Source: an uncultured bacterium
Lineage (GTDB): Bacteria; Joyebacterota; Joyebacteria; Joyebacterales; Joyebacteraceae
Direction: 5' to 3'
DNA: 64,000 nt
NCBI GenBank assembly: GCA_964521425.1
Contig: CAZFRO010000006.1
Coordinates: 46,620-110,619, forward strand
Below the pieces are notes generated by a model that saw nothing but the letters and a program-made list of their open reading frames with translations, was not told the origin of the DNA and did no database searches. Position numbers and translations under genes: made by a program. Within the stretch, counting starts at the first letter, position 1; every line of letters starts with the position of its first letter. Below are positions 42,192 to 64,000 of this stretch, in pieces.

Positions 42192-42204
42192 GAGGGCGTG
42201 GGCG

Positions 42205-46603: not shown

Positions 46604-46674
46604 CGTCTCCGGCAGCAACGCAGGAATTCTCATGAACGAGACGTGTGTGGCCGGCCGCGACATAAGGACAGGCG

Positions 46675-47649: not shown

Positions 47650-47708
47650 CGCGCGTACCAGTACAGGTGAGGCACAGCTAGCACGCGTACCAGCACGGGT
47701 GAGGTTCG

Positions 47709-48734: not shown

Positions 48735-48785
48735 CAGGAGCATGGCCACGTCGAGCCCTGAGGATCAGTTGATGGAGGAATCGGA

Positions 48786-50081
48786 ATGAAGCACAAGCTC
48801 AAGAAGCACTGGCTGCTGCGGGTTCTCCTCGTGACATCCGTTCTCGCCGTAACGCTTGCCGGGTGTGGTGGTGGGGACGAGGGTGGAGCCGACGGCGTGA
48901 CGCGTCTGCAGTTCTGGCATGCCATGGGGGGGCCGCTCGGTGACGCGCTCGATGTGCTCGTCGCGGAGTTCAACGAGAGTCACAGTGACATCGAGATCCA
49001 GTCGGTGAGCATGGGGCGCTACCAGGCGCTCTCGCAGAAGATCATGGCGTCCGTCGCAGCCGGCGAGCCGCCGGATCTGGCGCAGGTCTACGAGGCGTGG
49101 ACCGAGAACCTGATAGAGAACGGCAGTGCCGCGCCCCTGTCGCCGTATGTCAACGGACCGAACGGGCTTTCGCAGGAAGAACTCGACGACTTCATCCCGG
49201 GCATGATCGCGAACAGCACGTGGGAAGGTGAGATCTACTCGTTCCCCTTCAACAAGAGCGTCCGGGGCCTCTATTGGAACAAGGACGCGTTCGCAGAGGT
49301 GGGTCTCACACGCGCTCCCACGAACTGGGACGAGTATCTCGAGTACGCCAAGAAGCTCACACGCGACACCGACGGGGACGACGAGATCGATCAGTGGGGG
49401 ACGGCGGGGCAGATAAGCGCGTGGATGTTCGAGAACCTGCTCGTCCAGAACGGCGGGAGTATTCTCACAGCCGACGGCACGCGCGCTGCGTTCGATAGCC
49501 CCGAGGGAATCGAAGCCCTCGAGTTCATGGTGGAGCTTCTCACTGAGTACGGGAAGGTGACGTCCGGGTACGAGTACCAGAATGATTTCCAGGCGGGCAA
49601 GATAGGCATGATAGAAGGCTCCACCGTCTCGCTCGCGTTCATGGAGGGCAAATACACGTTCGACATGGCGCTCGCGCCGCTTCCGGAGAATAAGAAGAAG
49701 GCGTCCTTCTTCGCGGGCACCAACGTCGTCATCTTCGCGGATTCATGCGACGAGAACAAGACGGCTGCGTGGGAATTCGTGAAGTGGTTCACGAGTCCCG
49801 AGATCACGGCGCGCTGGGCCGCGATGACCGGGTACGCTCCGGTCAGACAGAGTGCAATGAACCTGCCCGTCATGCAGGAGAGGTTCGCGGAGGTCGAGGG
49901 ACTCGACCGCGTGTTCACGCAGCTCGACTACGCCGCGTTTGAGCCACGGTCCGCGGCCTGGTATGCGGGACGAAAGTACCTTGAGGAGAGCGGTGTCGAG
50001 GCCGCCCTCAGAAAGCAGATGATTCCGAGTGATGCACTGGCAGCCGCAGCAGTGGCCGTCAATGCCGAGCTTGCGCAATAG
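48786..50081 (+). CDS. extracellular solute-binding lipoprotein, family 1 (sugar ABC)
   Basis: Lipobox LAGCGGG. GGAGGAA SD. Typical SBP1 length and motifs. Confidence 0.8.
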   Translation: MKHKLKKHWLLRVLLVTSVLAVTLAGCGGGDEGGADGVTRLQFWHAMGGPLGDALDVLVAEFNESHSDIEIQSVSMGRYQALSQKIMASVAAGEPPDLAQVYEAWTENLIENGSAAPLSPYVNGPNGLSQEELDDFIPGMIANSTWEGEIYSFPFNKSVRGLYWNKDAFAEVGLTRAPTNWDEYLEYAKKLTRDTDGDDEIDQWGTAGQISAWMFENLLVQNGGSILTADGTRAAFDSPEGIEALEFMVELLTEYGKVTSGYEYQNDFQAGKIGMIEGSTVSLAFMEGKYTFDMALAPLPENKKKASFFAGTNVVIFADSCDENKTAAWEFVKWFTSPEITARWAAMTGYAPVRQSAMNLPVMQERFAEVEGLDRVFTQLDYAAFEPRSAAWYAGRKYLEESGVEAALRKQMIPSDALAAAAVAVNAELAQ

Positions 50082-50129: not shown

Positions 50130-51275
50130 ATGACACGACGCGGGAAGCACGGAGCGGTAGCCACGCTGGCACTGGCTGCACTGCTTGTTGCCGGCGTAGT
50201 CGCGGCTCAGGAGTTGACGATCTGCGAGGTGCAGCAGTACGACGCGAGCGGCTACTCACCATACAACGGGGAGACGGTGGCCGTCAGGGGGATTGTTACA
50301 TTCCCGCCGGGGTATGTCGTTCCCGGTGAACCGCCTGGACACACCTCGATGTACATCCAGTCGGGCGGCTGCGGAATCAACGTCTTCTGCTTCGATGAGC
50401 CGGCACTGGTTGACGTGGCACTCGGCGACAGCGTCAGAGTGACCGGTCAGGTCGAGGAGTATGTCGGCTCGAGCGCAGGAGCCACCACCGAGATATTGTG
50501 TGACAGCGGGGCGGACATCGAACTCCTTGTGGAGGGCGCGAGATTCGTAGAGCCGCTTGAACTCACGCTGTCGGATGGAATGATCGGGGAGGATCTCGAG
50601 GGCGTGCTTGTGAGAACTGTCGGAGTCATAACACTCCACCTGGGCTTCAAGATCGAACTCGAGGAACTGGACGACCCCGTTATCTACCAGGGTTACAACG
50701 ACAGCGTGGACTTCAACGTCTATGAAGTTGGGGACACGCTCGATGTGGCAGGAGTCGTCCTTCAGTACGACAGAAACCCACCGTACCTGGAGGGATTCGA
50801 GATCGTGCCACGCTTCCAGAGCGATATGAAGCACTTCGTGCCGTTTCCTCCGCCGTACGTCGGGTTCTCCTCCGATGTGCTGATCTCATTCCGTCAGATC
50901 ACGGCTGTCGACACAGCGGGCATGGCCGTGCTCGGAGACGAGAAGGCGCCTGTCTTCTACCCCGATATCGGGGAGATTCTGCCGATCTACTACAAGGCGC
51001 CTGCCGAGAGCCGCACCATTATGAAGCTCTACGATCTACAGGGCAGACTTGTACGCACGCTTCTGGATGAGGACTACGACGGTTACTCGGGTCTTCCAAA
51101 CCACTACGAGCAGCTCTTCCCGTACACCATGGGTGTGCGAGGCTGGGACGGGCGGGACGATCTCAGGCGGCTGGCTCCGGCCGGCACCTACATCTGTCGC
51201 TTTGAGGCGACGAAGCCGGGCGGGTCGACCGAAGTGGTCACGGCGCCTCTCGTCGTCGGAGCCAGGCTCAAGTGA
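50130..51275 (+). CDS. secreted OB-fold/beta-sandwich module protein (ExeM/NucH N-terminal-like, no nuclease domain) with T9SS CTD
   Basis: AAGGAGGAA SD. Signal peptide. ICEVQQYDASGYSPYNGETVAVRGIVT...MYIQSGGCGINVF...VRVTGQVEEYVGSSAGATTEI. LQYDRNPPYLEGFEIVPRFQSDM. CTD: IYYKAPAESRTIMKLYDLQGRLVRTLLDE...WDGRDDLRRLAPAGTYICRFE. Confidence 0.7.
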   Translation: MTRRGKHGAVATLALAALLVAGVVAAQELTICEVQQYDASGYSPYNGETVAVRGIVTFPPGYVVPGEPPGHTSMYIQSGGCGINVFCFDEPALVDVALGDSVRVTGQVEEYVGSSAGATTEILCDSGADIELLVEGARFVEPLELTLSDGMIGEDLEGVLVRTVGVITLHLGFKIELEELDDPVIYQGYNDSVDFNVYEVGDTLDVAGVVLQYDRNPPYLEGFEIVPRFQSDMKHFVPFPPPYVGFSSDVLISFRQITAVDTAGMAVLGDEKAPVFYPDIGEILPIYYKAPAESRTIMKLYDLQGRLVRTLLDEDYDGYSGLPNHYEQLFPYTMGVRGWDGRDDLRRLAPAGTYICRFEATKPGGSTEVVTAPLVVGARLK

Positions 51276-51313: not shown

Positions 51314-54300
51314 ATGAAGCTGAAGAGGGTAATTCTACTCGGGGTTCTCACTCTACTCATCGCGACCGCGGCATCGGCGGATGTGATAAACATCGCTGAT
51401 GTCAACGCTGACGATGAGGATGGGCACCCTATTCTGATGAACGATATCGTGACCATCGAGGGTGTTGTGACGGCGGGAACGGGGGCGTTTGCAGACACGA
51501 ACGAGATCTACGTCCAGGACGCCACGGGCGGAGTCCTCGTGATGCAGGTTCTCACGGCCGCCCCGTTCGTCGCTCCCGGTGACAGCGTCCGTGTGACGGG
51601 CAGTGTGGGCGTTGTCTACTTCAAGCGGACAATGCTGAGAGTGGGGGGAGGTGTCGCGGGATCACGAATCGACGTCCTGAGCACCGGTAATCCCGTGCCT
51701 GCACCGCTTGAACTCACTGCCCGTGACCTCTCTACATCGGGCGAGGATTACGAAGGAACATACGCGGTCGTGCGCGATGTATCACTTCTCCATCCGGGCG
51801 ACTGGCCGAGCACCGAGTACACGGACTTCCGCGAGCTTGACATCACGGATGCCGACACATCGTGTTGGCTCTGGGTGCACCCGTTCACCGATGTCGACGG
51901 CTCCTCGGCCCCTCTCGGGCAGTTCGATGTCTATGGCTTCGTCTCTCCTGACCCCACGCAGCCGAACAACGACGGCTACGGGCTCATTCCGAAAGCCAGG
52001 ATGGATATCCGCTCGGCAGGCTCGGGAGCAGGCTTCGCCACCGCGTCCCCGGAGTGGGTGTTCACGGGTGACGAGCAGGACATCGAGATCTCGCTTGTCG
52101 GAGAGTGCGACGCCCTCAGCCGGATAAGCGTGGCGATTCCGGGCGGATGGACCTTCTCGGGAGATGCGGCAGACATCGGTCTCGACGGCGCCGCGTTCCT
52201 GACGGCGGAGGTCGTGGCGCATCAGGACAGCACAAACACAACACTCATCACCATCCGGGGTGCGAATCTTATCTACGGTTCACCCGGTGACATCACCATC
52301 GAGAGCATGACCGTGCCCTCAACGGCCGGCGACTACGAATTCGTGGTCGGCACGTCCGTCCCGGGTGAGGATCCTGTCGTCATCGGCGATGGGGCCTGGG
52401 TGCACGTGGCAACGACAGGTGAGCCGGGTGATGTCGTCATCAACGAACTCTATCCAAACAGCGATGCCACAGGCGACATCGCGGAGTTCATCGAGCTTCA
52501 CAACCCATCCCGTGGAACGGTCGACATCTCCGGGTGGGTCCTGACCGATGTGGATGACTCGGGAACCTGCGGTGGCTCCAATCTCTGGGAGTTCCCGGTA
52601 GGTTCGGAGATCCCTGACGACGGCTACATTGTCGTTGCGCGTCACGCGATCGGCTACTACGTGCGCTTCGGTGTTGACCCCGATTACGAGCTTGTCGACG
52701 ATGACTACGCGGTCGATCCCGACGACGGTGGGGTTCCGAATCTCATGCTCATGTCACCGGTCGACGGCAACAGCCAGACGAGTCAGGAAATCATCCTGAT
52801 GGGCGGGGACGATGAGAACGGTGCGGTGCTGGAGGGCAAGCGCGTCTACGAGGCCGTCTATCTCTACACGGACAGGCTCAAGACCGACCTCATCGATGCC
52901 GTCGAGTACCGTGACCCGATCTACCTGGATGAGGATTTCTGCACAGGGGAGCCGGAACTCGGCGGTGATGATGACGCATTTGTTCCAGGCTTCGTTCCCC
53001 TGGACTACACGCTCGGTAGAGACGCGGTCTCGACTGACACGAACGCGAGTTCGACCGACCTCATCCTCTCATCAACACCGACTCCGGGTGACGTGAACGT
53101 TCCGACGGATACCGCACCGCCCGGCCTGGCCATGGTGACTGCTGCGGGGGATCGCTTTGTCAAGGTCGAGTTCTCGGAGCGGGTGGACGAGGATGATGCG
53201 ACGAACATCTCGAACTACGCGCTCAATGGGGGGCGTGAGATCTTGCGCGCACTGTTCTCCAGGGAAGAGCGGACGGTGTTTCTCTACGCGTCCGTCGACA
53301 GCACTGGGTTTCCGTACGAGCTTGACGTCAGCGGCGTCGCCGACGTCGCGGGGAATCAGATGATGACCGACTCCGCATCGTTCATAGGTTACTATCAGCA
53401 CTCAACACCGCTGTCCGAGATACAGGCCTACGACGAATACGGTCTCTCCCCTCTTGAGGGAGAGAGGGTCATCGCTCTTGGATTCGTCTCGGTTCCCCCC
53501 GGTGTCTTTCAGGTGGGCAAGACGAGTTTCTACATCCAGGATCTGGACGGGTACGGCATAAATATCTTCACGTCAGACCTTCTCCCTGATCCGCCCTCCA
53601 CGGGTGACCTCATCGAGATCGTCGGGGAGGTCGAGGAGTACATCTCCGGTGGGAACGGTGCGACAACGGAGATAATCGGAAGCGACGATGTTCCATTGAC
53701 CCTGATGGTACACGCGCGGGAACTCCACGCCATAGAGCCCGCCGTCATGCGCACCGGAGACATTGCGGACGAGGCGCTTGAGGGAACGCTCATAACGACG
53801 TCGGGTGTCATCATGAGTCTGGAGGGATTCGCCATCTACATCGATGACGGTTCCGGTTCCATCCAGGCCTATCAGAACTTCACCGACCTTGATTTCTCGA
53901 AGTACGCTTTCGGTGACAGCATCGGCGTGACCGGTGTTCTCCTCCAGTACGACTACTCGTCTCCGTTCTTCGGCGGGTATGAGCTGGCTCCGCGCTATGA
54001 GAGCGACATGGAGATCATGGAGGCGCACTTCGTTGCCGAAGCGGCAGTCACGGCGACGGCGCGAGTGCTCGACATCGACGAGGATGAAGTCATCGAGATA
54101 TCATACAACGGACCGCAGGCGAGCCACATCGCGGTCAGGGTCTTCGATCTTCAGGGCCGGTCGGTGGCGACGCTCTACGATGGTTGGTGCCTGGGACCAC
54201 AGAGAGCGACGTGGGACGGGAAGGATGACAGAGGTAAGGACCTGCCACCTGGCGTCTATGTCTGTCAGGTTCAGGCTAGAGCAAGAACCGGCGAGGCCGC

Positions 54301-54346
54301 GGGGAATGCGGCTGTGCCGATAGTTATCGGAATGAAGCTCCAATAG
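51314..54346 (+). CDS. secreted multi-domain T9SS cargo: OB-like module, Ig-like, lamin-tail domain (LTD), Ig-like, second OB-like module, CTD
   Basis: Signal peptide MKLKRVILLGVLTLLIATAASA. LTD signature VVINELYPNSDATGDIAEFIELHNPSRGTVDISGWVLTD. OB-like modules paralogous to gene 50130 (LLQYDYSSPFFGGYELAPRYESDME). CTD: RVFDLQGRSVATLYDG...WDGKDDRGKDLPPGVYVCQVQ. Confidence 0.8.
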   Translation: MKLKRVILLGVLTLLIATAASADVINIADVNADDEDGHPILMNDIVTIEGVVTAGTGAFADTNEIYVQDATGGVLVMQVLTAAPFVAPGDSVRVTGSVGVVYFKRTMLRVGGGVAGSRIDVLSTGNPVPAPLELTARDLSTSGEDYEGTYAVVRDVSLLHPGDWPSTEYTDFRELDITDADTSCWLWVHPFTDVDGSSAPLGQFDVYGFVSPDPTQPNNDGYGLIPKARMDIRSAGSGAGFATASPEWVFTGDEQDIEISLVGECDALSRISVAIPGGWTFSGDAADIGLDGAAFLTAEVVAHQDSTNTTLITIRGANLIYGSPGDITIESMTVPSTAGDYEFVVGTSVPGEDPVVIGDGAWVHVATTGEPGDVVINELYPNSDATGDIAEFIELHNPSRGTVDISGWVLTDVDDSGTCGGSNLWEFPVGSEIPDDGYIVVARHAIGYYVRFGVDPDYELVDDDYAVDPDDGGVPNLMLMSPVDGNSQTSQEIILMGGDDENGAVLEGKRVYEAVYLYTDRLKTDLIDAVEYRDPIYLDEDFCTGEPELGGDDDAFVPGFVPLDYTLGRDAVSTDTNASSTDLILSSTPTPGDVNVPTDTAPPGLAMVTAAGDRFVKVEFSERVDEDDATNISNYALNGGREILRALFSREERTVFLYASVDSTGFPYELDVSGVADVAGNQMMTDSASFIGYYQHSTPLSEIQAYDEYGLSPLEGERVIALGFVSVPPGVFQVGKTSFYIQDLDGYGINIFTSDLLPDPPSTGDLIEIVGEVEEYISGGNGATTEIIGSDDVPLTLMVHARELHAIEPAVMRTGDIADEALEGTLITTSGVIMSLEGFAIYIDDGSGSIQAYQNFTDLDFSKYAFGDSIGVTGVLLQYDYSSPFFGGYELAPRYESDMEIMEAHFVAEAAVTATARVLDIDEDEVIEISYNGPQASHIAVRVFDLQGRSVATLYDGWCLGPQRATWDGKDDRGKDLPPGVYVCQVQARARTGEAAGNAAVPIVIGMKLQ

Positions 54347-54398: not shown

Positions 54399-55280
54399 GT
54401 GAAAGGGATACGAATTGCAACCGCCGCGGCCGTCTTGGTCTGCCTCGTGCTTCCCGGCGTGGCCGGGGCCGCCGGCGTCTTTGACAACCTGATTCTCTCA
54501 CCGCGTGCGCGAGCCATGGGTGGGGCGTTTGTGGCGCTCTCAGATGATGAGACCGCGATCTTCACGAACCCCGCGGCTCTCGCGATGCAGGATGAGATCG
54601 GGATCTACTCGTCGTACGTGGATCTCTACGGCTACGATTTCCTGAAGCTCGGCTCCGGAGCCGTGACTATTCCCACTGACGTGGGAACCTTCGGAATCGG
54701 GGCCCGCTACTTCTCCACCGAATACGACGGCAGCGAACTCGAGAGCGAGTACTCGTTCGTGGTCGGCCAGGGCGTGATGCTGATGGAGGATGTGCATTCC
54801 TCCCTCGCGGTCGGATACGGACTGAGCCTCTACGGACTGAGTTTCCCGACCGAGTCCGTGGGAGGCGTGGAACTCGGGTCCGCCAACACCTTCGGCGTCG
54901 ACATCGGTGTGATAGGTACACTGAGAGGACGCACGCGGTTCGGCTTCTTCGCGAAGAACATCAACAACCCGAAGCTCGGCGACCCGGACGCGAAGGATCT
55001 CCCGCAGTGGTTCACGGCGGGCGTCTGCTACAGTCCGTACGGAGGTGTTCAGACTTGTCTCGAGATCCAGAAGCAGACCACGGAGGATCTGAGGGCCTGC
55101 TTCGGTCTTGAGTTCGAGATCAGCGACTACCTGACACTCCGCGGAGGCATCCAGAATCAGCCGAACAGGCTCTCGTTCGGGTTCGGCACCGGATGGAAGA
55201 TGGTCAAGCTCGACTACAGCTACACATCACACGAGACACTGCCGGGAAGTCACGTCTATGGCCTCGGCATCAAGTTCTAG
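54399..55280 (+). CDS. FadL/PorV/PorQ-superfamily outer-membrane beta-barrel
   Basis: GAAGGAGG sits before GTG 54399. Signal peptide. N-terminal plug-like motif SPRARAMGGAFVALSDDETAIFTNPAALA. Alternating amphipathic strands. C-terminal GLGIKF, an aromatic terminus. Confidence 0.6.
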   Translation: MKGIRIATAAAVLVCLVLPGVAGAAGVFDNLILSPRARAMGGAFVALSDDETAIFTNPAALAMQDEIGIYSSYVDLYGYDFLKLGSGAVTIPTDVGTFGIGARYFSTEYDGSELESEYSFVVGQGVMLMEDVHSSLAVGYGLSLYGLSFPTESVGGVELGSANTFGVDIGVIGTLRGRTRFGFFAKNINNPKLGDPDAKDLPQWFTAGVCYSPYGGVQTCLEIQKQTTEDLRACFGLEFEISDYLTLRGGIQNQPNRLSFGFGTGWKMVKLDYSYTSHETLPGSHVYGLGIKF

Positions 55281-55313: not shown

Positions 55314-57791
55314 ATGAAACGACTCAGAGCCATGGGGTTTGTGGCGGTGTTGGTCTGTCTCATTCTGGCCGCTAATGCCCCATGTGTTCGCGCCGAGGAG
55401 CAGCTCGATCTGAATCGCGCAACACTCGAGGAGATACGGGCACTGCCCATCTCCGAGGACGTTGTCGAGGTGATCTGGCAGTACAGGGAGTACACCTCCT
55501 ATTTCAGGAGCGTCTACGACCTGAGAACACTCCCTGGCGTGGCAATAGAGGATTTTCTGCGGATCAAACCGCTTGTGAAGATCGTTCCGGTGCTGATCGA
55601 GGATGAGGAGCTTCTGCGAATCAACGAGATCTACTACCGGATCAGACAGTGGGAATCGGAGGAGGGTGGTGGTGAGGCGCTCGTGGATCACTGGATCGAT
55701 CTTGCGAAGGATCCCGTGAACATCAACACGGCGAGCTACAACGAGATCGCTAATCTCCAGAGCGTGTCGCCTCCGGACGCGGCGGCCATCTTCAAGAACA
55801 TGCGGAAGAACCGCGTGGAGCGGAGATCGCAGCTGAGAAACATTCCGGGGCTGACGTACTGGGGCTACTACAACGTGCGGAATTTCGTGCGTTACGATGA
55901 GCCCGCTGATGATGCCCCGTTTAGGGGAAGCTACCAGTTCCGGATCTACGACACTCCGTCTATCTTCGATACGGAGGAGCTTCTCAAGGAGGACCGGAAC
56001 TTCGCCGACGGAGGGTACGATTCCTGGTGGGATCGTCTCAATCTGGACGGCGCGGGTCCCATCTACCAGCACAAGTTCCGCGGAAGATGGGGGCAGGACA
56101 TTAACGCGGGGGCGCTGGCGCACAAGGGGTTCGGTGATGACGAACTTACCGCGTTCAAGTTCCACGCGACGATACGGGACAAGTCGATCGGTCCGGTGAC
56201 TTTCGACAACATAGTCATTGGCAACTACGCCCTCGCCTTTGGGCAGGGCCTGGTGATGCAGAACACCGACTACTTCAAGCCGAGGAACTCCGGCTACGGG
56301 TGGGACAAGAGGTACATGGGTGTTCTGGGTGATATCTCGCCGACACAGCAGTATCAGCTCAACGGTGTCGCCACGGAGATGACGCTCGGCAACGTGAAGA
56401 GCGTGGTCTTCTACTCTGATGACTGGAAGGATGCCGTTCTCAATCCCGACGGCACCATCAACCAGTACATCATCATGTCTCCTCGTATCAGCAACGACGA
56501 CCTGGCCGCGGCCGGCATGCGCGACATGAAGGACGTCGTTCACGAACAGACGGTAGGCGCGAATATCAAGTACGGCTTCGCGCCCGGTACGTGGATCGGC
56601 GTGAGCGCTTACGAGAGTCGCTACAACAAGTACTGGAAGTCGGGTTACGATCCGAACGGCACGATGGACGTCGCCTGGATCGTTCCGGAGGACAACGAGG
56701 ACAAACTTGTTGCCGCCGACGCCGAGTACTTCTCAAGTTACACAAGTCCGGGCAAGTTCAGACGCGTCTTCGGTGCGGAGTTCCAGTACGTCCTGGACAA
56801 CGTCGCCTTTGCCGGCGAGTACGCCTCGCTCGACAAGGACGGGGAGATCTTTGACCTTGAGGAGGATGCAAACGCGTTCGTCGTCAATGCCTACGCGTCC
56901 TACAGCAACCTGAGCTTCCTCGCTCTCTACCGGGACTACGATGTGGATTTCGACAATCCTTACAGTCGTGCGTTCTCCGAGTACAAGCGGTACAAGGGGA
57001 CGATACTCGAGGATCAGTACTATCTGTCGGATCCGATCTACGGTCTTCTCTACGTGAATTCCGTGGCGCCGCAGGCGGAACGGGGGCTGTACATCAACTC
57101 TCGATACAGGTTCTCCGACCGTCTGACTCCGTCGATCGAGTACGATGTCTGGGAGCGCAAGGCCGACGGTGCCGACTACTCCCGCCTGGTCGTCAAGCTC
57201 AGATTTCAGCCCATCTACAACATCGTGATGAATCTGAGACAGAAGTGGCAGGGACGTCTGGGTGAGAACACGCTGACACCTCAAGCCTACGAGCAGGTCG
57301 AGACCCGGTTCAGACTCGAGTACAGGCTCTCGAAGTACGATGAAGTCGAGTTCATGCTGTCGAGATCATGGATCGAGTGGCCGCCGAGGCCGCGGCTCTC
57401 GGGCAATCCGGAGGCTGACGGCGAGTATCCGGACATCGGATCGGCCGCGGTCCCGTCGTATGCGATTGGGGCCGCCGTCACCCACAACTTCAGTGACTGG
57501 TTGAAGGTGACGGGATCGGTTCTCTACTACGACGGCTTCATCTGGCTCTTCGAGGATGGGTCGTTCACGGTCATTGACGACCACGCCTTCAGGTACTGGA
57601 TATCGATCTCGGATCGTATCTCCGATCACCTGTCACTCAGGTTCAGGTGGACCAACAACCAGTCGTTCCCCCTGAGCTATGTGGACGCGAGGGAATACGG
57701 GGAGAACCCGCCGGGTGATCCGGAGCCGAACGGGTTCTACGTCAGGGACGATAATGCAGGGTACCGAATCCAGCTTGACTACTCGTGGTAG
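55314..57791 (+). CDS. outer-membrane beta-barrel protein with two N-terminal ComEA-type helix-hairpin-helix DNA-binding domains
   Basis: Signal peptide. HhH 1: DLNRATLEEIRALPISEDVVEVIWQYRE...LRTLPGVAIEDF. HhH 2: VNINTASYNEIANLQSVSPPDAAAIFKNMRKNRV...LRNIPGLT. A Tyr/Gly-rich region of about 650 aa has beta-strand periodicity and ends LDYSW. Confidence 0.7.
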   Translation: MKRLRAMGFVAVLVCLILAANAPCVRAEEQLDLNRATLEEIRALPISEDVVEVIWQYREYTSYFRSVYDLRTLPGVAIEDFLRIKPLVKIVPVLIEDEELLRINEIYYRIRQWESEEGGGEALVDHWIDLAKDPVNINTASYNEIANLQSVSPPDAAAIFKNMRKNRVERRSQLRNIPGLTYWGYYNVRNFVRYDEPADDAPFRGSYQFRIYDTPSIFDTEELLKEDRNFADGGYDSWWDRLNLDGAGPIYQHKFRGRWGQDINAGALAHKGFGDDELTAFKFHATIRDKSIGPVTFDNIVIGNYALAFGQGLVMQNTDYFKPRNSGYGWDKRYMGVLGDISPTQQYQLNGVATEMTLGNVKSVVFYSDDWKDAVLNPDGTINQYIIMSPRISNDDLAAAGMRDMKDVVHEQTVGANIKYGFAPGTWIGVSAYESRYNKYWKSGYDPNGTMDVAWIVPEDNEDKLVAADAEYFSSYTSPGKFRRVFGAEFQYVLDNVAFAGEYASLDKDGEIFDLEEDANAFVVNAYASYSNLSFLALYRDYDVDFDNPYSRAFSEYKRYKGTILEDQYYLSDPIYGLLYVNSVAPQAERGLYINSRYRFSDRLTPSIEYDVWERKADGADYSRLVVKLRFQPIYNIVMNLRQKWQGRLGENTLTPQAYEQVETRFRLEYRLSKYDEVEFMLSRSWIEWPPRPRLSGNPEADGEYPDIGSAAVPSYAIGAAVTHNFSDWLKVTGSVLYYDGFIWLFEDGSFTVIDDHAFRYWISISDRISDHLSLRFRWTNNQSFPLSYVDAREYGENPPGDPEPNGFYVRDDNAGYRIQLDYSW

Positions 57792-57859: not shown

Positions 57860-59086
57860 ATGCGACGAGGATTCACGGTCGTGATGGCTCTCCTCGCTGT
57901 CGCGAGTCTGTGCGGGAGCGCCGCGGCGTTCTCGTACGCAGAGTGGCACTACGGGGAGTTCGTACCAGCCGGCGACGCCAGGTCGCTGGCGCTTGGTGGG
58001 GCCGGACTCGCGTCCGCAGACGGGGCGCGTGGTGCGGGACTGAACCCCGCGCTGGTTGCGAAGACTGTCGGGCTCGAGCTTGCTATGAGCGCGATGCTGC
58101 TCACTGCGGAGGAGTCAAGAGAGGCGCCTCTCTACGACAGTTTTGAGGGCATCATCGGTTACAACACTTACGCATTCAACACGACGATGTACGATCGCTA
58201 CGTCGGGACGATCTCGTGGAAGCCGTCGGGCGACTACGACTGGGCTCCGGCTGTGGCGATCGGATACCACCCACGGCTGGACATGTCCTACAGCTACCAC
58301 GTCCAGTACAGGGACTCCGACACGCAGGCTGAGCCGATGGACAAGATTCTCTACGACTACTGGAACGAGGGCGAGGGCGGCGTCAACGCCTACACCGTGA
58401 CCCTGGCCCACGAGGTCGTACCGGAAGTCTACCTGGGGCTCGGCGTCGACTTCCTGAGAGGGCAGGCGGACGCAGAGGAGCGGTGGGTCTATCCGGAGTA
58501 CTCCGAGGAGACCGATGTAGACGGCTGGTTCGAATTGGATGGTTTCTCGGGGACCCAATTCACCGTCGGGCTTCTGGTCGAGAAGCTGCATCGTGTGGAC
58601 GTGGCCGTCGTATATCGCTCGAGCTTCGAACTGGCCGCCGACTACAGCGGTGAGAGCACGGAGGACGAGGCGGACGACGGGAACCTCACGTATTCGTATC
58701 CCTCAGCGATCGGTGTGGGGTTCGAGTACCACCCGCGCAACGAGATAATGACCACCGTGAGTCTGGATATCGAATACACGGAGTGGTCGAAGTTTGAGGA
58801 CAGCCTCACTGACGATCTGGATCTCAGCGACACGATCGAGTACCGCGTGGGCGTGGAGCATCAGTTCTTCAACACGACACAGGCCCGGTTTGGTTTCCTC
58901 TACCAGCCTTCCTACATGGATGACGAGACCACGAGAGCTGCATTCAGCATCGGTCTCGGGTTGGACCTCGTTGGCGTGAGGTTGGATGTAGGGGGGCAGC
59001 TTGGCGTGAGGGAGTACGATATCGAAGACGGTCGCATCCGTGAGACGACGACCACGGCGATGGTGAGTCTTTCGCACCGATTCTAG
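57860..59086 (+). CDS. FadL/PorV-like outer-membrane beta-barrel (paralogous fold to 54399)
   Basis: GGGGAGG sits before ATG 57860. Signal peptide. Motif ARSLALGGAGLASADGARGAGLNPA. Ends SLSHRF. Confidence 0.55.
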   Translation: MRRGFTVVMALLAVASLCGSAAAFSYAEWHYGEFVPAGDARSLALGGAGLASADGARGAGLNPALVAKTVGLELAMSAMLLTAEESREAPLYDSFEGIIGYNTYAFNTTMYDRYVGTISWKPSGDYDWAPAVAIGYHPRLDMSYSYHVQYRDSDTQAEPMDKILYDYWNEGEGGVNAYTVTLAHEVVPEVYLGLGVDFLRGQADAEERWVYPEYSEETDVDGWFELDGFSGTQFTVGLLVEKLHRVDVAVVYRSSFELAADYSGESTEDEADDGNLTYSYPSAIGVGFEYHPRNEIMTTVSLDIEYTEWSKFEDSLTDDLDLSDTIEYRVGVEHQFFNTTQARFGFLYQPSYMDDETTRAAFSIGLGLDLVGVRLDVGGQLGVREYDIEDGRIRETTTTAMVSLSHRF

Positions 59087-59118: not shown

Positions 59119-60873
59119 ATGATAATTCGACGAAGGCTCACGCTGGTACTTGCGGTTGCCATAGCTGTCCTTGCTGTGGCGCCGGCGTGGGGCGCTTCAG
59201 ACACCGATGGATTGTTCCGCCTGTCTGTCGTGTTCACGAACGACATACACGGTGGGATCGACCCGTCGGGAGCTACCTTTATGAACAGGGAGTTCCCGCC
59301 GCCTCTGGGTGGAGCCGCCTCGGCTGTCACCTACATTGAGATGTTGCGGGAGAGGGCGAGGGAAGAGGGTGGAGCTGTCCTGCTGATTGATCAGGGCGAC
59401 ATCTTTCAGGGTACTCCGGTCGGCAACTTCCGGAAGGGTGAGTCCGTCATCGAGTACTTCAATCATGTCGGATTCGATCTCTGGACGATCGGCAACCACG
59501 ATTTCGATGAGGGAGCCGAGAACCTCTGGCACCTGATCGAGATGTCAGAAATGCCGGTACTCTCGGCGAACCTGGTGTGGGAGGAGACCGGAGAACCGGT
59601 CGAGCACGTCGAGCCCTACATCATCAAGGACTACGGCGGCGTCAAGGTGGCCATCGTAGGACTGACGACGACGGACACTCCCAAGATGGCTTTTCCCGCT
59701 CATGTTGCGGGCGTGAAGTTCCTGTCTTCCATCGAGACGGCGGAGCGCTACGTCAAGGAAGTCAGAGAGGCAGGGGCGGACATCGTCATCTTCTCCGGGC
59801 ATATGGGGCTTCCGTACGATCCCATCTCCGGCTATGCGAAGCTCATCGAAGAAGAGCAGGAGCGGGACGAGGAGGCCGTGCGCGAGCCGCTTGAGGAGAA
59901 GAAGTGGGGTGCGCATGCGATGGAGATCGCCCACAAGGTGCCCGGCATCGACGCCTTCTTCGCCGGTCATATCCATAAGGGATTTGATGAGCCGTGGGAG
60001 GAGCCGTCCACACACACCATCATCTTCCAGACCTACGGGCGGGGCTCCGGAGTTGGCAACGTCGATCTCCTGATCGACCCCGTGACGAAGACGCTGGTCG
60101 GATATGAACTTCCGTCGTACCGTGGTGACCTCATCACGCTCTTCGAGGATCAGTGGTGGCCGAATGAGGAGACCACTGAGATGATCACCGCTCTGGTCGA
60201 TGAGGCGGAAGTCGGGATGGACCGCATCATTGGCTACACCGATATCGATCTTTCGCGGGGAGGAGATGGTGAGACCAGAATGGGGAACCTGGTCTGCAGC
60301 GCCATGCTCGAAGAAGTTGATGCTGATTTCGCGTTCACGAACCTCGGTGGTATCCGGGACGAGATCCCGACCGGCCCCGTGACGCCGCGCCAGGTCTTCA
60401 AGGTTCTTCCGTTTGGCAACAGCCTCATGGTGTTCGAGATGGACGGGAGGCTCTTGAAGGAAGTAGTCGAGTATCGCGTCAGCGCCGACCACCATGGTGT
60501 CTACATGGCCGGTGGCAGGATCGTCTACAACAAGACACGACCGGACTACGACCGCGTGACCTCCTTCACGATCGGTGGTGAGCCATGGGAGGCGGACCGC
60601 ATCTACCGCGTCGTCACGAGTGACTTCCTTGCGGTGGGCAATGCGGGTCTCTACATGCTTCCCGACATACCTGATGACAAGAAGCGGAGAACCTCGACGA
60701 CGTGTATGGACGCGGCTGTCCACTACATTGAACGTCATACTCCGATAGGACCTCAGCTCGACGGGCGATGGGTGAGGGATGATGAGGCCGAGGTCAGTGC
60801 CGCTCTCATCGCAGCCATGGAGGGCATGGAGCCCTTAGCACCCCCCGTGGAGGAGGCTAGCGGGCCCTACTAG
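59119..60873 (+). CDS. secreted bifunctional metallophosphatase / 5'-nucleotidase (UshA family)
   Basis: GAGGAGAAG SD. Signal peptide. VVFTNDIHGG, DQGDIFQGTPVGNF and GNHDFDEG metallophosphatase motifs. C-terminal 5'-nucleotidase domain (FTNLGGIRDEIPTGPVT, FGNSL). Confidence 0.85.
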   Translation: MIIRRRLTLVLAVAIAVLAVAPAWGASDTDGLFRLSVVFTNDIHGGIDPSGATFMNREFPPPLGGAASAVTYIEMLRERAREEGGAVLLIDQGDIFQGTPVGNFRKGESVIEYFNHVGFDLWTIGNHDFDEGAENLWHLIEMSEMPVLSANLVWEETGEPVEHVEPYIIKDYGGVKVAIVGLTTTDTPKMAFPAHVAGVKFLSSIETAERYVKEVREAGADIVIFSGHMGLPYDPISGYAKLIEEEQERDEEAVREPLEEKKWGAHAMEIAHKVPGIDAFFAGHIHKGFDEPWEEPSTHTIIFQTYGRGSGVGNVDLLIDPVTKTLVGYELPSYRGDLITLFEDQWWPNEETTEMITALVDEAEVGMDRIIGYTDIDLSRGGDGETRMGNLVCSAMLEEVDADFAFTNLGGIRDEIPTGPVTPRQVFKVLPFGNSLMVFEMDGRLLKEVVEYRVSADHHGVYMAGGRIVYNKTRPDYDRVTSFTIGGEPWEADRIYRVVTSDFLAVGNAGLYMLPDIPDDKKRRTSTTCMDAAVHYIERHTPIGPQLDGRWVRDDEAEVSAALIAAMEGMEPLAPPVEEASGPY

Positions 60874-61017: not shown

Positions 61018-61046
61018 TGGACAAGTGATGCTCTGTGTGGTATAAT
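61018..61046 (+). promoter_or_regulatory. strong sigma70-like promoter: TGGACA - 17 nt - TGgTATAAT (extended -10)
   Basis: Perfect TATAAT at 61041-61046 with an upstream TG. The -35 TGGACA lies at 61018-61023. Followed by a leader of about 160 nt before ATG 61211. Confidence 0.5.
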
Positions 61047-61210: not shown

Positions 61211-64000
61211 ATGATGAAGCTGTCTGTTCTGGTCGCAGCCGTGCTCGTTCTGGTATTCGGCGCGGCCATGGCTAATCCTTCAGGTACCGATGTTGTTATC
61301 AATGAGATCTACCCGGACGCCAACGAGTACTATGACGGCGCCGAGTTCATTGAGCTCTACAATCCGACCGGAAGTTCGATTGACATCGGCGGATTTGTTC
61401 TCTGCGGAGTCGAGTACGACCAGCTCTGCGGAGGCGAAGACCGCTGGCAGTTCCCGTTTGGGACGACCATCGCCGCCGGGGGCTACATCACGGTCGCGAA
61501 GGACGGGGCCGACGGTGACGACGGATTCTACGAGGAGTTCGGGATCTACCCCGACTTCGAGATGTTCGATGCGTCGTTTGAGTTCGATAACGACAGCATG
61601 TTTGTCCCAAACATGAATCTCCTGGACCCCGATCCTGCGACCGGCTACAGCGACGAGATACAGCTGGTCGGCGGCAAGGGCTACGGCACCATGTGCGGCG
61701 GCTACAGCAATGGTGACGTTGTGTATCTGTACACGACAGGATCTCTGATAACTCTGGTCGACCTTGTCGAGTACGCCGATATGGAGGTCTGCACCGAGGA
61801 TCCGTGTTTCGGCGATGACGGTATCCCGGACAATGCGTTCGACGAGATCCCGTACCTCGGCAACACACTTGGTCGTGACGCCTCCAGCACGGACACCGAT
61901 AGCAGCATCACGGACTGGCAGATGCAGGCTCCCACGCCCGGCGTTCAGAACATTCAGAACACGCCGCCGTGGATTCGTTCGGTCATGTACTCGCCGATCC
62001 CACCGATGGACACGGACGCCGTCGACATCACGGCTGTCGTGACCGATGATGGCAGCGTAGATTCAGTCATGGTCTACTACCGTGTGGACGCGGGGCCGTG
62101 GGGCACAGTTGCCGCATCGGGAGTGGACACACTCTACACGGGTACCATTGCGGCCCAGGCGAACGGATCCCAGGTCCAGTACTTCGTGCGTGCCGTCGAC
62201 AATCATGGCGCCGGCATCAACTACCCGTCCGAGGGTTTCTCTGATCCGTACGCCTACTCGGTCGGCTTCACGACCATCTACGATGTGCAGTTCGTACCTT
62301 TTGGTGGCGATGCGTCGCCTCTCGAAGGCCAGACTGTCAACGTGACGGGTATTGTGACTGCAGCGAAGGGCGAGTTCTCCGATTCATTCTGCATGATCCA
62401 CGAAGGCAATACGTACTTCGAGGGCATCAAGATCTACGCCACGTACAACTACGACGGCGAGATCAATGAGGGTGACGAGATCACGGTCTCCGGTTTTGTG
62501 ACCGAGTACTACGGTGAGACCGAGATCTATGTTCCTTTCAATGAGGCAGTCACGATTCTCTCGACGGGCAATGCGAACTACGGCTATGCCGCAGTCACAA
62601 CGGCCGACATCGATCCTGATGACACCGGCTCCGAGGCGTATGAAGGTCAGCTCATCAGCGTCAGCAACGTGACGGTGACGGCCGAGCCCGACGGCTACGG
62701 CCAGTGGTACATCGAGGATGCCTCGGCAGTGGGTGCCATGGTCGATGACTACGGGTACTACAGCTACACCCCGCAGCTCTTTGATGTGCTCGACGAGGTT
62801 CGTGGCGTACTGATGTACAGCTACGACCAGTTCAAGATCGAGCCGCGGTACGACGAAGATATCGTTGGTCCGCCGAGGATCGCGGACGTTCGCTACTCGC
62901 CGATACCGCCGGTGGCCGGCAATGTCACGATTACTGCCGACATCACCGACAACCAGGGCATCAGTTCGGCAACGCTGAACTACGCTCTTTCGGCGGCAGG
63001 TCCCTTCAGCCAGACGCCGATGACGACATCGCGCGATATCTACTCCGCGACGATCGGTCCGTACGTCGATGGCAACAGGATCTACTACTTCATCGAGGCC
63101 AGCGACGGCGTGATGGATGCCAGGAAGCCGACTGCGGGCTCGTACAGCCTCTACATCGGCATGGTCGACATCTTCGACATCCAGTTTGTCGCCGCCCCTG
63201 GTGTGGATGACACGTCACCGCTCGACACGCTTGCGGTCAACACGACCGGTATCGTGACGGCGGAGCCGGGTGTCTACAGCGACTACTATTTCACGATCCA
63301 GACCGAGGACGTGGCACGCGGTGCGTGGCAGGGAATCAAGGTCTACGATCGCACCGGTTCGGCGAGCTTCGAGCGCGGCGATGAGATCATCGTCTGTGGC
63401 GAGGTTCAGGAGAACTGGGGCGAGACTGAGGTCTCCCTGCACTTCGTCGAGGGAGCAGTCCTCGTCGAGTCGCGCGGCAGCATGCCGGATGCAGTCTCCA
63501 TCGCTACGGCCGATCTCCAGACCAAGACCACCGGCGAGCAGTACGAGGGCGTCTACGTTCACGCCGAGGACGCTACGGTCATGGTTGCGGACATGGGCTA
63601 CGGCGAATGGGCCATCACAAACGGGGCCGCTGGTGATACGTGCCGCGTCGATGATGACGCTCCGTACACCTACGAGCCGGTAGAGGGCGACAACGTCTTC
63701 GTTCTTGGTACGGTCATGTTCTCGTATGGCAACTACAAGCTCGAGCCGCGCGGCGATGACGATATCGCCGTCAATCCGGTCGGTGTCGAAGACGGCATCG
63801 TCGGTGCCAAGCTCGATCTCGGCCAGAACATGCCGAACCCGTTCAACCCGAAGACGACCATCGCCTTCACACTGCCTGAGCCGACGGATGTCACGATCGA
63901 GGTCTACGATGTGACCGGTCGCAGGATCGTCACACTCATGAGCGACCGCCTCGAAGCGGGTGGTCACTTCGTCGAGTGGTCGGGACGTGGTGACAACGGT
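61211..64000 (+). CDS. secreted multi-domain T9SS cargo (3' end beyond window): lamin-tail domain, FN3/Ig-like modules, two OB-like modules, CTD beginning at about 63815
   Basis: AAGGAGG sits before ATG 61211. Signal peptide MMKLSVLVAAVLVLVFGAAMA. LTD: VVINEIYPDANEYYDGAEFIELYNPTGSSIDIGGFVLCG. OB-like: IYDVQFVPFGG...TVNVTGIVTA and IFDIQFVAAPG...NTTGIVTA. CTD start: NMPNPFNPKTTIAFTL...VTIEVYDVTGRRIVTL. Confidence 0.8.
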   Translation, partial: MMKLSVLVAAVLVLVFGAAMANPSGTDVVINEIYPDANEYYDGAEFIELYNPTGSSIDIGGFVLCGVEYDQLCGGEDRWQFPFGTTIAAGGYITVAKDGADGDDGFYEEFGIYPDFEMFDASFEFDNDSMFVPNMNLLDPDPATGYSDEIQLVGGKGYGTMCGGYSNGDVVYLYTTGSLITLVDLVEYADMEVCTEDPCFGDDGIPDNAFDEIPYLGNTLGRDASSTDTDSSITDWQMQAPTPGVQNIQNTPPWIRSVMYSPIPPMDTDAVDITAVVTDDGSVDSVMVYYRVDAGPWGTVAASGVDTLYTGTIAAQANGSQVQYFVRAVDNHGAGINYPSEGFSDPYAYSVGFTTIYDVQFVPFGGDASPLEGQTVNVTGIVTAAKGEFSDSFCMIHEGNTYFEGIKIYATYNYDGEINEGDEITVSGFVTEYYGETEIYVPFNEAVTILSTGNANYGYAAVTTADIDPDDTGSEAYEGQLISVSNVTVTAEPDGYGQWYIEDASAVGAMVDDYGYYSYTPQLFDVLDEVRGVLMYSYDQFKIEPRYDEDIVGPPRIADVRYSPIPPVAGNVTITADITDNQGISSATLNYALSAAGPFSQTPMTTSRDIYSATIGPYVDGNRIYYFIEASDGVMDARKPTAGSYSLYIGMVDIFDIQFVAAPGVDDTSPLDTLAVNTTGIVTAEPGVYSDYYFTIQTEDVARGAWQGIKVYDRTGSASFERGDEIIVCGEVQENWGETEVSLHFVEGAVLVESRGSMPDAVSIATADLQTKTTGEQYEGVYVHAEDATVMVADMGYGEWAITNGAAGDTCRVDDDAPYTYEPVEGDNVFVLGTVMFSYGNYKLEPRGDDDIAVNPVGVEDGIVGAKLDLGQNMPNPFNPKTTIAFTLPEPTDVTIEVYDVTGRRIVTLMSDRLEAGGHFVEWSGRGDNG

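What the first reader, a model, noticed from the sequence alone, without database searches (positions are those of the whole stretch)
55314..57791. Outer-membrane beta-barrel fused to two ComEA-type helix-hairpin-helix domains
After the signal peptide, two segments match the ComEA DNA-binding domain closely: DLNRATLEEIRALP...VIWQYRE...LRTLPGV and VNINTASYNEIANLQ...IFKNMRKNR...LRNIPGLT. A Tyr/Gly-rich region of about 650 aa follows, with strand periodicity ending in an aromatic residue (…LDYSW), the hallmark of an outer-membrane barrel. ComEA is normally a small periplasmic or membrane-anchored protein that ratchets DNA inward during competence. A ComEA-barrel fusion would be an outer-membrane DNA receptor or conduit.
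Basis: partly seen in the sequence, partly recalled or inferred. Interest (0 to 1): 0.8.

Follow-up and report, generated by a model that had tools for sequence, protein, structure and literature searches.

The report
Outer-membrane barrel with ComEA-like domains
This gene encodes a large outer-membrane pore carrying two ComEA-like (DNA-uptake type) domains on its periplasmic side; it sits in a gene cassette conserved across many uncultured bacterial phyla that looks built to capture outside DNA and use it as food, which would be an undescribed route for DNA across the outer membrane.

Summary

The fusion defines a small family: 198 clusters at 50% identity among 1.84 billion proteins, with HHH_3 in 43 of 46 diverse members. 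All examined members are MAGs labelled with FCB-type phyla (Eisenbacteria, Zixibacteria, Gemmatimonadota, Fibrobacteraceae, Calditrichota, Krumholzibacteriota, WOR-3).

The gene lies in a conserved cassette: LTD/OB/DUF5689 surface protein with a variant sorting domain, a PorV-like barrel (74/78 loci), the HhH-barrel, a FadL-like barrel (70/72), and 5'-nucleotidase (52/56). A ComEC-type MBL lipoprotein or PLD-type genes are often present. The rest of the window encodes nucleoside import and purine/pyrimidine catabolism, with no ComEC channel or secretin.

Strand topology puts the HhH modules in the periplasm, so "surface DNA receptor" is unlikely. The best reading is a nucleic-acid import pore for scavenging (confidence about 0.5). 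DNA binding and pore openness are untested, and the HhH hairpins are degenerate. I found no published description.

The parts
55314..57791 (+). HhH-barrel ORF (825 aa plus stop)
55314..55394 (+). Sec-type signal peptide (res 1-27, cleavage about VRA/EE)
   Evidence: only hydrophobic 19-mer in the protein; pLDDT below 50 at res 21-27
55401..55589 (+). HhH module 1 (res 30-92), ComEA-like; hairpins LPIS... and LPGV...
   Evidence: HHH_3 and TIGR00426 stretch 30-85; family conservation N34, L44, P45, G75
55590..55709 (+). acidic helical linker (res 93-132; family mean net charge -5)
   Evidence: helices 98-105, 107-115, 121-132; E117, G118, E121, D125, D129 conserved; charge
55710..55901 (+). HhH module 2 (res 133-196), best HHH_3 stretch 133-193; net +6 in this protein
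   Evidence: invariant N138, D155, A156, R189
55923..57788 (+). about 24-strand outer-membrane beta-barrel (res 204-825), C-terminal ...QLDYSW
54399..55280 (+). PorV-like 14-strand barrel (293 aa), universal upstream partner
57860..59086 (+). FadL/BamG-like barrel (408 aa from the called start)
   Evidence: Pfam Toluene_X 30.9 bits, cutoff 29.7; NCBIfam BamG 64 bits, sub-threshold; start from gene calls; directly downstream in 70/72 loci
59119..60873 (+). UshA-like 5'-nucleotidase with Sec signal peptide
   Evidence: Metallophos + 5_nucleotid_C; UshA 196.7 bits; within 5.5 kb downstream in 52/56 loci
51314..54346 (+). surface protein: DUF5689-like + LTD + Big_5 + OB + variant CTD (1010 aa)
   Evidence: variant CTD
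50130..51275 (+). OB-fold protein with variant CTD (381 aa), paralogue of the C-terminal third of the LTD protein; weak ExeM/NucH N-terminal match
45308..46603 (+). lipoprotein (LAGC lipobox) with a stand-alone ComEC/Rec2-type MBL domain: candidate periplasmic DNA nuclease
   Evidence: TIGR00361 94.9 bits, E 3e-27, model positions 440-633/663; lipobox; placed between the FadL-like gene and 5'-NT in 7 loci
46675..50081 (+). UgpA/E/B-like ABC importer: permeases 46675-47649 and 47718-48734, lipoprotein SBP 48786-50081
   Evidence: co-located upstream in many loci
61211..64000 (+). second LTD + ExeM/NucH-N-terminal-like OB protein with a generic T9SS type-A CTD; runs off the window end

Best explanation
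The protein is the central outer-membrane pore of a conserved extracellular nucleic-acid scavenging cassette.

Proposed sequence of events (shown or inferred is marked):
1. Secreted proteins built from LTD, OB-fold and DUF5689-like modules carry a cassette-specific C-terminal sorting domain. They are held at the cell surface by the dedicated PorV-like barrel and capture DNA. Domains, variant CTD and PorV fold are shown; anchoring and DNA capture are inferred.
2. DNA or oligonucleotides pass the outer membrane through the roughly 24-strand barrel, whose lumen-facing strand residues are rich in conserved Arg/Lys. The barrel and its charge pattern are shown; passage is inferred.
3. The two ComEA-like HhH modules, tethered at the periplasmic mouth, hold the incoming strand and present it to periplasmic hydrolases. 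Periplasmic location is inferred from strand topology; DNA binding is inferred from homology.
4. The hydrolases are a ComEC-type MBL lipoprotein, PLD-type genes in WOR-3, and a Metallophos enzyme. The UshA-like 5'-nucleotidase then releases nucleosides and phosphate. Enzyme identities are shown by HMM.
5. Products enter through the adjacent Ugp-like and PnrA/Bmp-like ABC importers and feed the purine/pyrimidine catabolic enzymes encoded in the same 64 kb.

Because only two HhH modules are tethered per pore, they more likely act as a guide or retention clamp than as the multi-copy ratchet formed by free ComEA. Processive hydrolysis could give the process its direction.

For: Lumen: the family-averaged charge of lumen-facing strand residues is +29.9/-19.6, with 15 near-invariant Arg/Lys.

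Family: the fusion is invariant, with HHH_3 in 43/46 members down to about 23% identity, and the barrel is not found in other architectures apart from two TPR-bearing members.

Cassette: PorV-like directly upstream in 74/78 loci, FadL-like directly downstream in 70/72, 5'-NT nearby in 52/56. The same order holds on Mb-scale contigs. In WOR-3 the 5'-NT is replaced by two PLDc_2 genes.

Window context: PnrA/Bmp and Ugp-like importers, adenine deaminase, xanthine dehydrogenase subunits, dihydropyrimidine dehydrogenase, carbamate kinase and split transketolase.
Against: No experiment exists for any member; all examined members come from MAGs. DNA binding by the HhH modules is unproven. The first hairpin of each module lacks the canonical Gly-x-Gly (LPIS.., LQSVSP..), the second hairpins keep only one Gly, and the ComEA equivalog HMMs are far from threshold. 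HhH-like folds also occur in non-DNA proteins, and there are faint GspK/T2SSK matches. I could not inspect model coordinates, so it is unknown whether the lumen is open, occluded by the highly conserved long loops (FGQGLVM..NTD, res 308-320; YDxxFDNPY.R.FS, res 541-556), or capped by the HhH modules. No recognisable endonuclease domain is present in the surface proteins. The invariant pairing with a PorV-like barrel and a CTD-bearing protein also fits a protein export or anchoring role. No energy source for import is evident: there is no TonB plug and no pilus genes in the window.
Confidence: 0.5

Rival explanations
1. Dedicated export or anchoring platform for the DNA-binding surface proteins. 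By analogy with SprA-PorV in type IX secretion, or with 24-strand ushers that pass Ig-like domains one by one, the large barrel would be the translocon or docking partner for the variant-CTD proteins encoded just upstream. The PorV-like barrel would collect and hold their CTD. The HhH modules would be protein-interaction or structural domains. DNA would be degraded outside the cell, and only small products would enter through the FadL-like or other porins.
Against: HHH_3 with ComEA-like structure is retained in 43/46 members across deep divergence. That is hard to explain for a protein translocon. A ComEC-type MBL nuclease lipoprotein and a Sec-dependent 5'-nucleotidase without a CTD imply that nucleic-acid substrates reach the periplasm. 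Other CTD proteins in the window, and LTD2 next door, use the generic CTD and have no such barrel. There is no similarity to SprA, and no usher plug or chaperone genes.
Confidence: 0.22
2. Outer-membrane entry step of natural transformation. The barrel would replace the PilQ secretin and pilus, the fused HhH modules would replace free ComEA, and DNA would be passed to a ComEC channel encoded elsewhere in the genome.
For: ComEA-type domains. In Riemerella, another member of the FCB group, pilus-independent transformation requires a DUF5689 surface protein, an outer-membrane barrel and an HhH-domain protein (PMC8459023). JGI labels family members 'DNA uptake protein ComE-like'. Uptake for food and uptake for genes are not mutually exclusive.
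Against: The window has no ComEC channel, ComF, DprA or secretin. The cassette is linked to degradative enzymes (5'-NT in 52/56 loci, MBL, PLD) and, here, to nucleobase catabolism and nucleoside importers. The ComEC-like protein present has only the nuclease domain, not the channel.
Confidence: 0.12
3. A general porin or an outer-membrane tether. The periplasmic HhH region would bind another periplasmic polymer or protein, as SLH-domain porins OmpM and SlpA tether the outer membrane. The DNA-related neighbours would be functionally unconnected.
Against: Those matches have low scores (TM 0.2-0.3). Synteny with nucleic-acid proteins holds across at least seven phylum-level labels. The family is small and specialised, whereas housekeeping tethers are usually ubiquitous in a phylum.
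Confidence: 0.06

Closest known systems
ComEA (competence DNA receptor; PF12836/TIGR01259; PDB 2DUY, 8DSS, 8DFK)
   Different: ComEA is a small soluble or inner-membrane-anchored protein that acts in many copies. Here two divergent modules are covalently fused to an outer-membrane barrel. The equivalog HMM thresholds are not met and the first hairpins lack Gly-x-Gly.
Bacteroidota DNA-utilisation / transformation loci (B. thetaiotaomicron ddbABCDEF; Riemerella RA0C_RS04915/04920 plus HhH protein RA0C_RS02645)
   Same: An outer-membrane transporter encoded next to a surface DUF5689-type DNA-binding protein and nucleases, in the FCB lineage. An HhH protein is needed in Riemerella. The ddb locus has a nutritional role (PMC12478041, PMC8459023).
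   Different: Those systems use a TonB-dependent transporter with a plug. This barrel has no Plug, TonB_dep_Rec or CarboxypepD_reg match and is unrelated in sequence. The partner protein matches DUF5689 only weakly (24.1 bits, cutoff 28.6; 8/33 relatives) and is dominated by LTD and OB domains. PorV-like and FadL-like barrels are additional parts. The HhH is fused rather than separate.
PilQ secretin with type IV pilus (canonical Gram-negative DNA uptake)
   Same: Proposed role as the outer-membrane passage for DNA, working with a ComEA-type domain.
   Different: A secretin is a multimeric gated channel driven by pilus retraction. This is a monomeric barrel of about 24 strands, with no Secretin domain and no pilus genes nearby.
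SprA-PorV (type IX secretion translocon, PDB 6H3I) and BamA-BamG
   Same: A PorV/FadL-type 14-strand barrel encoded with, and presumably docking on, a much larger barrel. CTD-bearing proteins are encoded alongside.
   Different: SprA is a 36-strand barrel unrelated to this protein and exports folded proteins. Here the large barrel carries ComEA-like domains, and the CTD is a distinct variant.
Periplasmic-domain-plus-porin polymer conduits (PgaA, BcsC, PelB, AlgE/AlgK) and 24-strand ushers (FimD, PapC)
   Different: Those systems export polysaccharide or pilins. The sequences are unrelated and there is no usher plug or chaperone. The direction proposed here is inward and the polymer is nucleic acid.

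Membership tests
ComEA / HHH_3 DNA-binding domain | Match to Pfam PF12836 above the gathering score | tested here: met
   51.7 bits against 27, two stretches; 43/46 family members at E<1e-3
ComEA / HHH_3 DNA-binding domain | Match to the ComEA-specific models TIGR01259 / TIGR00426 at their cutoffs | tested here: not met
   30 bits against 152.35 and 29.9 bits against 53.1
ComEA / HHH_3 DNA-binding domain | Fold of the (HhH)2 domain | tested here: met
ComEA / HHH_3 DNA-binding domain | Canonical Gly-hydrophobic-Gly hairpins that contact the DNA backbone | tested here: not met
   First hairpins are L44-P45-I-(P/S) and Q149-N-V-S-P-V-D-A with no Gly. Second hairpins are P-G75-(M/I/V)-T and P-G179-L-S-Y-W-G with one Gly. 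ComEA has GVG and GIG (alignment).
ComEA / HHH_3 DNA-binding domain | Binds DNA; small free periplasmic or membrane-anchored protein | not testable with these tools
   DNA binding needs EMSA. The architecture clearly differs, since the domains are fused to a 625-aa barrel.
Outer-membrane beta-barrel protein | Signal peptide, amphipathic antiparallel strands closing a barrel, C-terminal aromatic beta-signal | tested here: met
TonB-dependent transporter (DdbC / RA0C_RS04915 type) | Plug domain, TonB box and 22-strand TonB_dep_Rec barrel (plus CarboxypepD_reg in Bacteroidota) | tested here: not met
Ddb-type DNA-utilisation locus | Adjacent DUF5689 surface DNA-binding protein | tested here: inconclusive
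   The upstream protein hits DUF5689 at 24.1 bits (cutoff 28.6). 8/33 orthologous partners hit at E<1e-3.
Ddb-type DNA-utilisation locus | Secreted or periplasmic nucleases in the locus | tested here: inconclusive
   ComEC-type MBL lipoprotein, Metallophos enzymes and PLDc_2 genes in WOR-3. No activity data and no homologue of DdbA/B/F was sought.
Secretin (PilQ) | Secretin and N-domains; multimeric channel | tested here: not met
   No Secretin match. The model is a monomeric barrel.
Chaperone-usher usher | Usher Pfam domain, plug, N- and C-terminal domains, chaperone gene | tested here: not met
PorV/PorQ family (for the neighbour 54399-55280) | NCBIfam PorV_fam at cutoff; PorV fold | tested here: inconclusive

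The most novel reading that the evidence does not exclude
This family is the pore of a third way of moving polymeric DNA across a Gram-negative outer membrane, independent of the pilus, the secretin and TonB. It would be a monomeric barrel of about 24 strands with built-in ComEA-like modules, working in a three-barrel complex with PorV-like and FadL-like partners that tether LTD/OB DNA-catching proteins at its mouth. It would be widespread in uncultured FCB-type phyla and used mainly for feeding on environmental DNA.
Probability: 0.35. Interest if true: 0.85.

Novelty: new variant of a known kind. Interest (0 to 1): 0.7.

Why it matters
Extracellular DNA is a large pool of phosphorus, nitrogen and carbon in sediments and soils. 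How Gram-negative bacteria get polymeric DNA through the outer membrane is known only for the pilus/secretin competence machine and, recently, for a TonB-dependent system in Bacteroidota. A conserved cassette in many uncultured phyla that couples a large barrel carrying ComEA-type domains to DNA-binding surface proteins, a ComEC-type nuclease domain, 5'-nucleotidase and importers would be a further solution. It also places parts of the competence machine (ComEA HhH, ComEC MBL) in an apparently catabolic setting, which bears on the long-running question of whether DNA uptake serves nutrition or genetic exchange. The family gives concrete constructs to test: HhH modules for DNA binding, the barrel for conductance, and the variant CTD with the PorV-like barrel for anchoring.

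Tried and rejected

2. Model coordinates are not exposed. Pore radius, loop occlusion and the position of the HhH modules could not be measured. I used the DSSP strand map plus alignment-based in/out assignment instead.

3. Net charge of the HhH modules: module 1 is -2 and the family mean is -3.1, which looked like evidence against DNA binding. The aligned HhH segment of genuine B. subtilis-type ComEA (8dfk) is also -2, so I dropped the criterion as uninformative.

4. The two HhH modules show no BLASTP similarity to each other, so a recent internal duplication is not supported.

5. I asked whether the Riemerella HhH protein RA0C_RS02645 belongs to this family. The most distant members with about 300-aa N-terminal regions turned out to be WOR-3/TA06, not Bacteroidota. 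No Bacteroidota member appeared among the sequences examined.

6. Promoter and terminator scans give counts no higher than shuffled sequence. They are used only as a weak hint of operon limits (sites at 45202-45230 and 61018-61046).

7. Rfam gives no structured RNA in the window.

8. ORF 46560-47681 ('unk373'), which I first treated as a gene, is in the wrong frame. The real gene is the permease 46675-47649.

9. Literature searches for a ComEA-barrel fusion, for this cassette, or for DNA uptake in these phyla found nothing relevant.
Full report
**1. What is in the sequence**

ORF 55314..57791 on the + strand encodes 825 aa. The only hydrophobic helix is an N-terminal signal peptide, MKRLRAMGFVAVLVCLILAANAPCVRA/EEQ.

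Residues 30-92 and 133-196 together pass Pfam HHH_3 (PF12836) at 51.7 bits against a cutoff of 27, as two stretches. The ComEA-specific NCBIfam models are hit only weakly: TIGR01259 at 30 bits against 152, and TIGR00426 at 29.9 against 53.1. The remaining 625 aa match no Pfam or NCBIfam model even at E<=1.

AlphaFold2 with a 60-sequence alignment (A1) gives a confident model with mean pLDDT 84.5 and pTM 0.81. It has two helical HhH modules joined by three conserved acidic helices (res 98-132), then about 24 long beta-strands between res 204 and 824.

- PapC, Wzi, AlgE, TonB-dependent receptors and MtrB at lower scores.

Foldseek agrees, with low TM-scores of 0.2-0.3. The fold class is clear, but there is no close solved relative.

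In the family alignment all 24 strands show alternating hydrophobic and polar faces. The protein ends in ...QLDYSW, with Q820, D822 and Y823 conserved.

**2. Topology**

Strand hairpins are joined alternately by turns of 2-5 residues and by long loops (213-249, 310-348, 373-408, 438-481, 543-588, 689-712, 785-813). With an even strand number this is the classic OMP topology: short periplasmic turns, long external loops, and both termini in the periplasm.

By this inference the HhH modules are periplasmic, not surface-exposed. I could not examine coordinates. Whether the lumen is open, constricted by the very conserved loops (FGQGLVM..NTD and YD..FDNPY.R.FS), or capped by the HhH region remains unknown.

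Lumen-facing strand positions carry much conserved charge. The family-averaged values are +29.9 and -19.6, and 15 Arg/Lys are near-invariant. This fits a polyanion path but does not prove one.

**3. The family**

A word-indexed search found more than 160 full-length relatives of 800-950 aa. Where named, they are from Candidatus Eisenbacteria and are annotated only as hypothetical, 'helix-hairpin-helix domain-containing' or 'ComE-like'.

An exhaustive HMMER scan of 1.84 billion representatives with the barrel alone found only 198 clusters. Full-length members are nearly all 750-900 aa, with the barrel starting at residue 190-330.

- HHH_3 is present in 43 of 46 diverse members, down to about 23% identity. 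Two members carry TPR repeats.
- 377 species-level genomes encode a relative. All of the top 80 are MAGs, labelled Eisenbacteria, Zixibacteria, Gemmatimonadota, Ignavibacteria, Krumholzibacteriota, Fibrobacteraceae and Calditrichota.
- The most distant members are from WOR-3 and TA06.

The fusion is thus an old, defining architecture of a small family confined, as far as examined, to FCB-type lineages. No cultured carrier was identified.

**4. Conserved cassette**

In 87 loci, tblastn with the window's proteins gives these results:
- The PorV-like gene lies directly upstream in 74/78 testable loci. The other four have it just beyond my gap limit.
- The FadL-like gene lies directly downstream in 70/72.
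- A UshA-like 5'-nucleotidase lies within 5.5 kb in 52/56.
- A ComEC-type MBL gene is inserted between them in 7 loci.

Gene calls on long contigs show the same order. In WOR-3 one locus keeps OB/CTD protein, 292-aa protein, HhH-barrel and 386-aa protein, but follows them with two PLDc_2 genes instead of 5'-NT. A second WOR-3 locus keeps only the roughly 273-aa gene plus the barrel. The minimal pair is therefore PorV-like plus HhH-barrel.

The protein encoded just before the PorV-like gene is variable in length. Among 33 diverse examples it contains LTD in 24, OB fold in 14, Big_5 in 9, DUF5689 in 8 and a FlgD_ig-type CTD in 16. None has a recognisable nuclease catalytic domain.

In 65/67 loci this protein ends in the same motif, WDGRD..G.Y.CH......AP(I/V)VV(G/A)..L.. 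An alignment with other CTD proteins of the window shows this is a distinct variant. It lacks the PNPFNP start of generic T9SS type-A CTDs and has an extra roughly 9-residue tail. The downstream LTD2 protein and the beta-helix and cohesin proteins at 5-16 kb carry the generic form. A dedicated CTD/PorV-like pairing is the simplest inference.

**5. Wider context in the window**

All genes from about 45.3 to 60.9 kb are on the + strand, with gaps of -4 to 68 nt. In order they are:
- a lipoprotein with a stand-alone ComEC/Rec2-type MBL domain (TIGR00361 94.9 bits, E 3e-27, model positions 440-633);
- a Ugp-like ABC importer;
- an OB/CTD protein;
- the LTD/OB/CTD protein;
- the PorV-like barrel;
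- the HhH-barrel;
- the FadL-like barrel;
- the 5'-nucleotidase.

Upstream lie a Metallophos/purple-acid-phosphatase-like protein and a PnrA/Bmp-type ABC importer. Further upstream are adenine deaminase, carbamate kinase, two carbamoyltransferases, xanthine-dehydrogenase subunits with XdhC and MobA, a split transketolase, amidohydrolases and a PreT/PreA-like dihydropyrimidine dehydrogenase.

No ComEC channel, secretin, ComF or DprA is present. The window reads as a nucleic-acid-to-nucleobase catabolic region.

**6. Interpretation**

The best-supported reading has confidence about 0.5. The HhH-barrel is the outer-membrane passage of a DNA/oligonucleotide scavenging apparatus.
- Variant-CTD LTD/OB proteins are anchored by the PorV-like barrel and catch DNA at the surface.
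- The barrel lets DNA through.
- The tethered HhH modules hold the incoming strand in the periplasm.
- MBL, PLD and Metallophos enzymes and the 5'-nucleotidase degrade it.
- ABC importers take up the products.

Shown: the domain identities, the folds, the synteny and the catabolic context. Inferred: periplasmic orientation, DNA binding, passage through the barrel, CTD anchoring and the three-barrel complex.

In V. cholerae, ComEA promotes DNA uptake by binding incoming DNA in the periplasm (PMC3879209). From general knowledge, free ComEA does this in many copies. Two tethered modules are therefore more plausibly a clamp or guide than a true ratchet.

The precedent for pilus-independent DNA transport in this superphylum is the TonB-dependent DdbC/DdbD pair of B. 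thetaiotaomicron and its Riemerella homologues. The Riemerella system also needs a separate HhH protein (PMC12478041, PMC8459023). LTD plus OB is the non-catalytic part of the ExeM nuclease (PMC6085458).

**7. Rivals**

- (a) An export or anchoring platform for the variant-CTD proteins, like SprA-PorV or an usher (0.22). It is favoured by the invariant CTD/PorV-like linkage and the usher-like strand number. It is disfavoured by the deeply conserved ComEA-type domains and by the periplasmic ComEC-type nuclease and 5'-NT.
- (b) The outer-membrane step of natural transformation (0.12). It cannot be excluded because the rest of the genome was not searchable, but the cassette is tied to degradative enzymes.
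- (c) A porin or outer-membrane tether unrelated to DNA (0.06).

The main weaknesses of the leading model are the degenerate HhH hairpins, the sub-threshold ComEA-specific HMMs, the unknown state of the lumen, and the lack of any energy source or experimental data.

**8. Novelty and verdict**

Six of the seven full-text searches were aimed at a ComEA-barrel fusion, this cassette, or DNA uptake in these phyla, and none found a description. Databases name members only generically.

The protein is not a member of the ComEA equivalog, TBDT, secretin or usher families. It works, at most, like a combination of a ComEA and a polymer porin. I rate it a new variant of a known kind (outer-membrane DNA uptake/utilisation systems) with interest 0.7. 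If DNA translocation is demonstrated, it would be a distinct, widespread mechanism (probability about 0.35, interest 0.85).

Noticed in passing
window 45308-46603 (+): Lipoprotein (LAGC lipobox) consisting of a stand-alone ComEC/Rec2-type metallo-beta-lactamase domain (TIGR00361 94.9 bits, model positions 440-633/663) without the ComEC channel. In seven other loci the orthologue sits between the FadL-like gene and the 5'-nucleotidase. It is a candidate periplasmic DNA nuclease.
   Followed up: partly
window 54074-54343 and 51003-51272; compared with 10819-11088, 11736-12005, 14257-14526, 15175-15444 and L088:18499-18768: There are two subtypes of C-terminal sorting domain. The generic T9SS type-A form starts ...PNPFNP... 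and ends ...MVLLK. A cassette-specific variant lacks PNPFNP and has an extra ...AP(I/V)VV(G/A)xxLx tail. The variant occurs only on proteins encoded directly upstream of the PorV-like gene and is conserved from WOR-3 to Eisenbacteria.
   Followed up: partly
window 1310-3873, 17058-18527, 20535-35470: Dense set of nucleobase-catabolism genes: PreT/PreA-like dihydropyrimidine dehydrogenase, two amidohydrolases, a PLP enzyme, xanthine-dehydrogenase 2Fe-2S and FAD subunits with XdhC and MobA, split transketolase, an aminotransferase, two OTCase-like carbamoyltransferases, carbamate kinase and adenine deaminase. It looks like an anaerobic purine/pyrimidine degradation region.
   Followed up: no
window 5371-16029 (+): A 1906-aa right-handed beta-helix protein followed by four cohesin-domain proteins. 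All but the last carry FlgD_ig-type CTDs. This may be a surface scaffold unrelated to the finding.
   Followed up: no
window 36327-43107 (+): PnrA/Bmp-type ABC importer (SBP, ATPase, two BPD_transp_2 permeases). A MurJ-like ORF (40554-42191) lies between the two permease genes and overlaps the listed start of the second. The start coordinates there need checking.
   Followed up: no
window 46560-47681 vs 46675-47649 (+): The longest ORF here (373 aa, no domain) is in the wrong reading frame. Gene calls on the source contigs place a 324-aa BPD_transp_1 permease at 46675-47649. This is an example of long spurious ORFs in 60% GC DNA. Many antisense ORFs of more than 150 aa across the window are likely spurious for the same reason.
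   Followed up: yes
L078, L081, L083: Three MAG contigs labelled 'bacterium (Ejby)', 'Fibrobacter sp.' and 'Gemmatimonas sp.' encode identical C-terminal sequences in the upstream protein. At least some submitter taxonomy labels in this family are therefore inconsistent or mis-binned, and the phylum list should be read with that caveat.
   Followed up: no
L086:13598-14748 (WOR-3 locus): In a WOR-3 relative, two PLDc_2 genes take the place of the 5'-nucleotidase downstream of the FadL-like gene. From memory, PLDc_2 includes Nuc-type PLD nucleases. The downstream enzyme module appears to have been swapped while the barrel core is kept.
   Followed up: no
L088:19000-22478 (just beyond the window's 3' end): Downstream of LTD2 the source contig encodes an InhA-like/MAM-domain protein of about 937 aa and yet another LTD protein. 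The surface-protein cluster therefore continues past the window.
   Followed up: no
P0229 (1251 aa), P0237 (944 aa): Two of the 46 scanned family members match TPR repeat families. The two atypically long members, P0229 and P0237, are the likely ones, but I did not check which members match. A TPR-plus-barrel arrangement would recall polysaccharide-export porins such as PgaA, BcsC and PelB.
   Followed up: no
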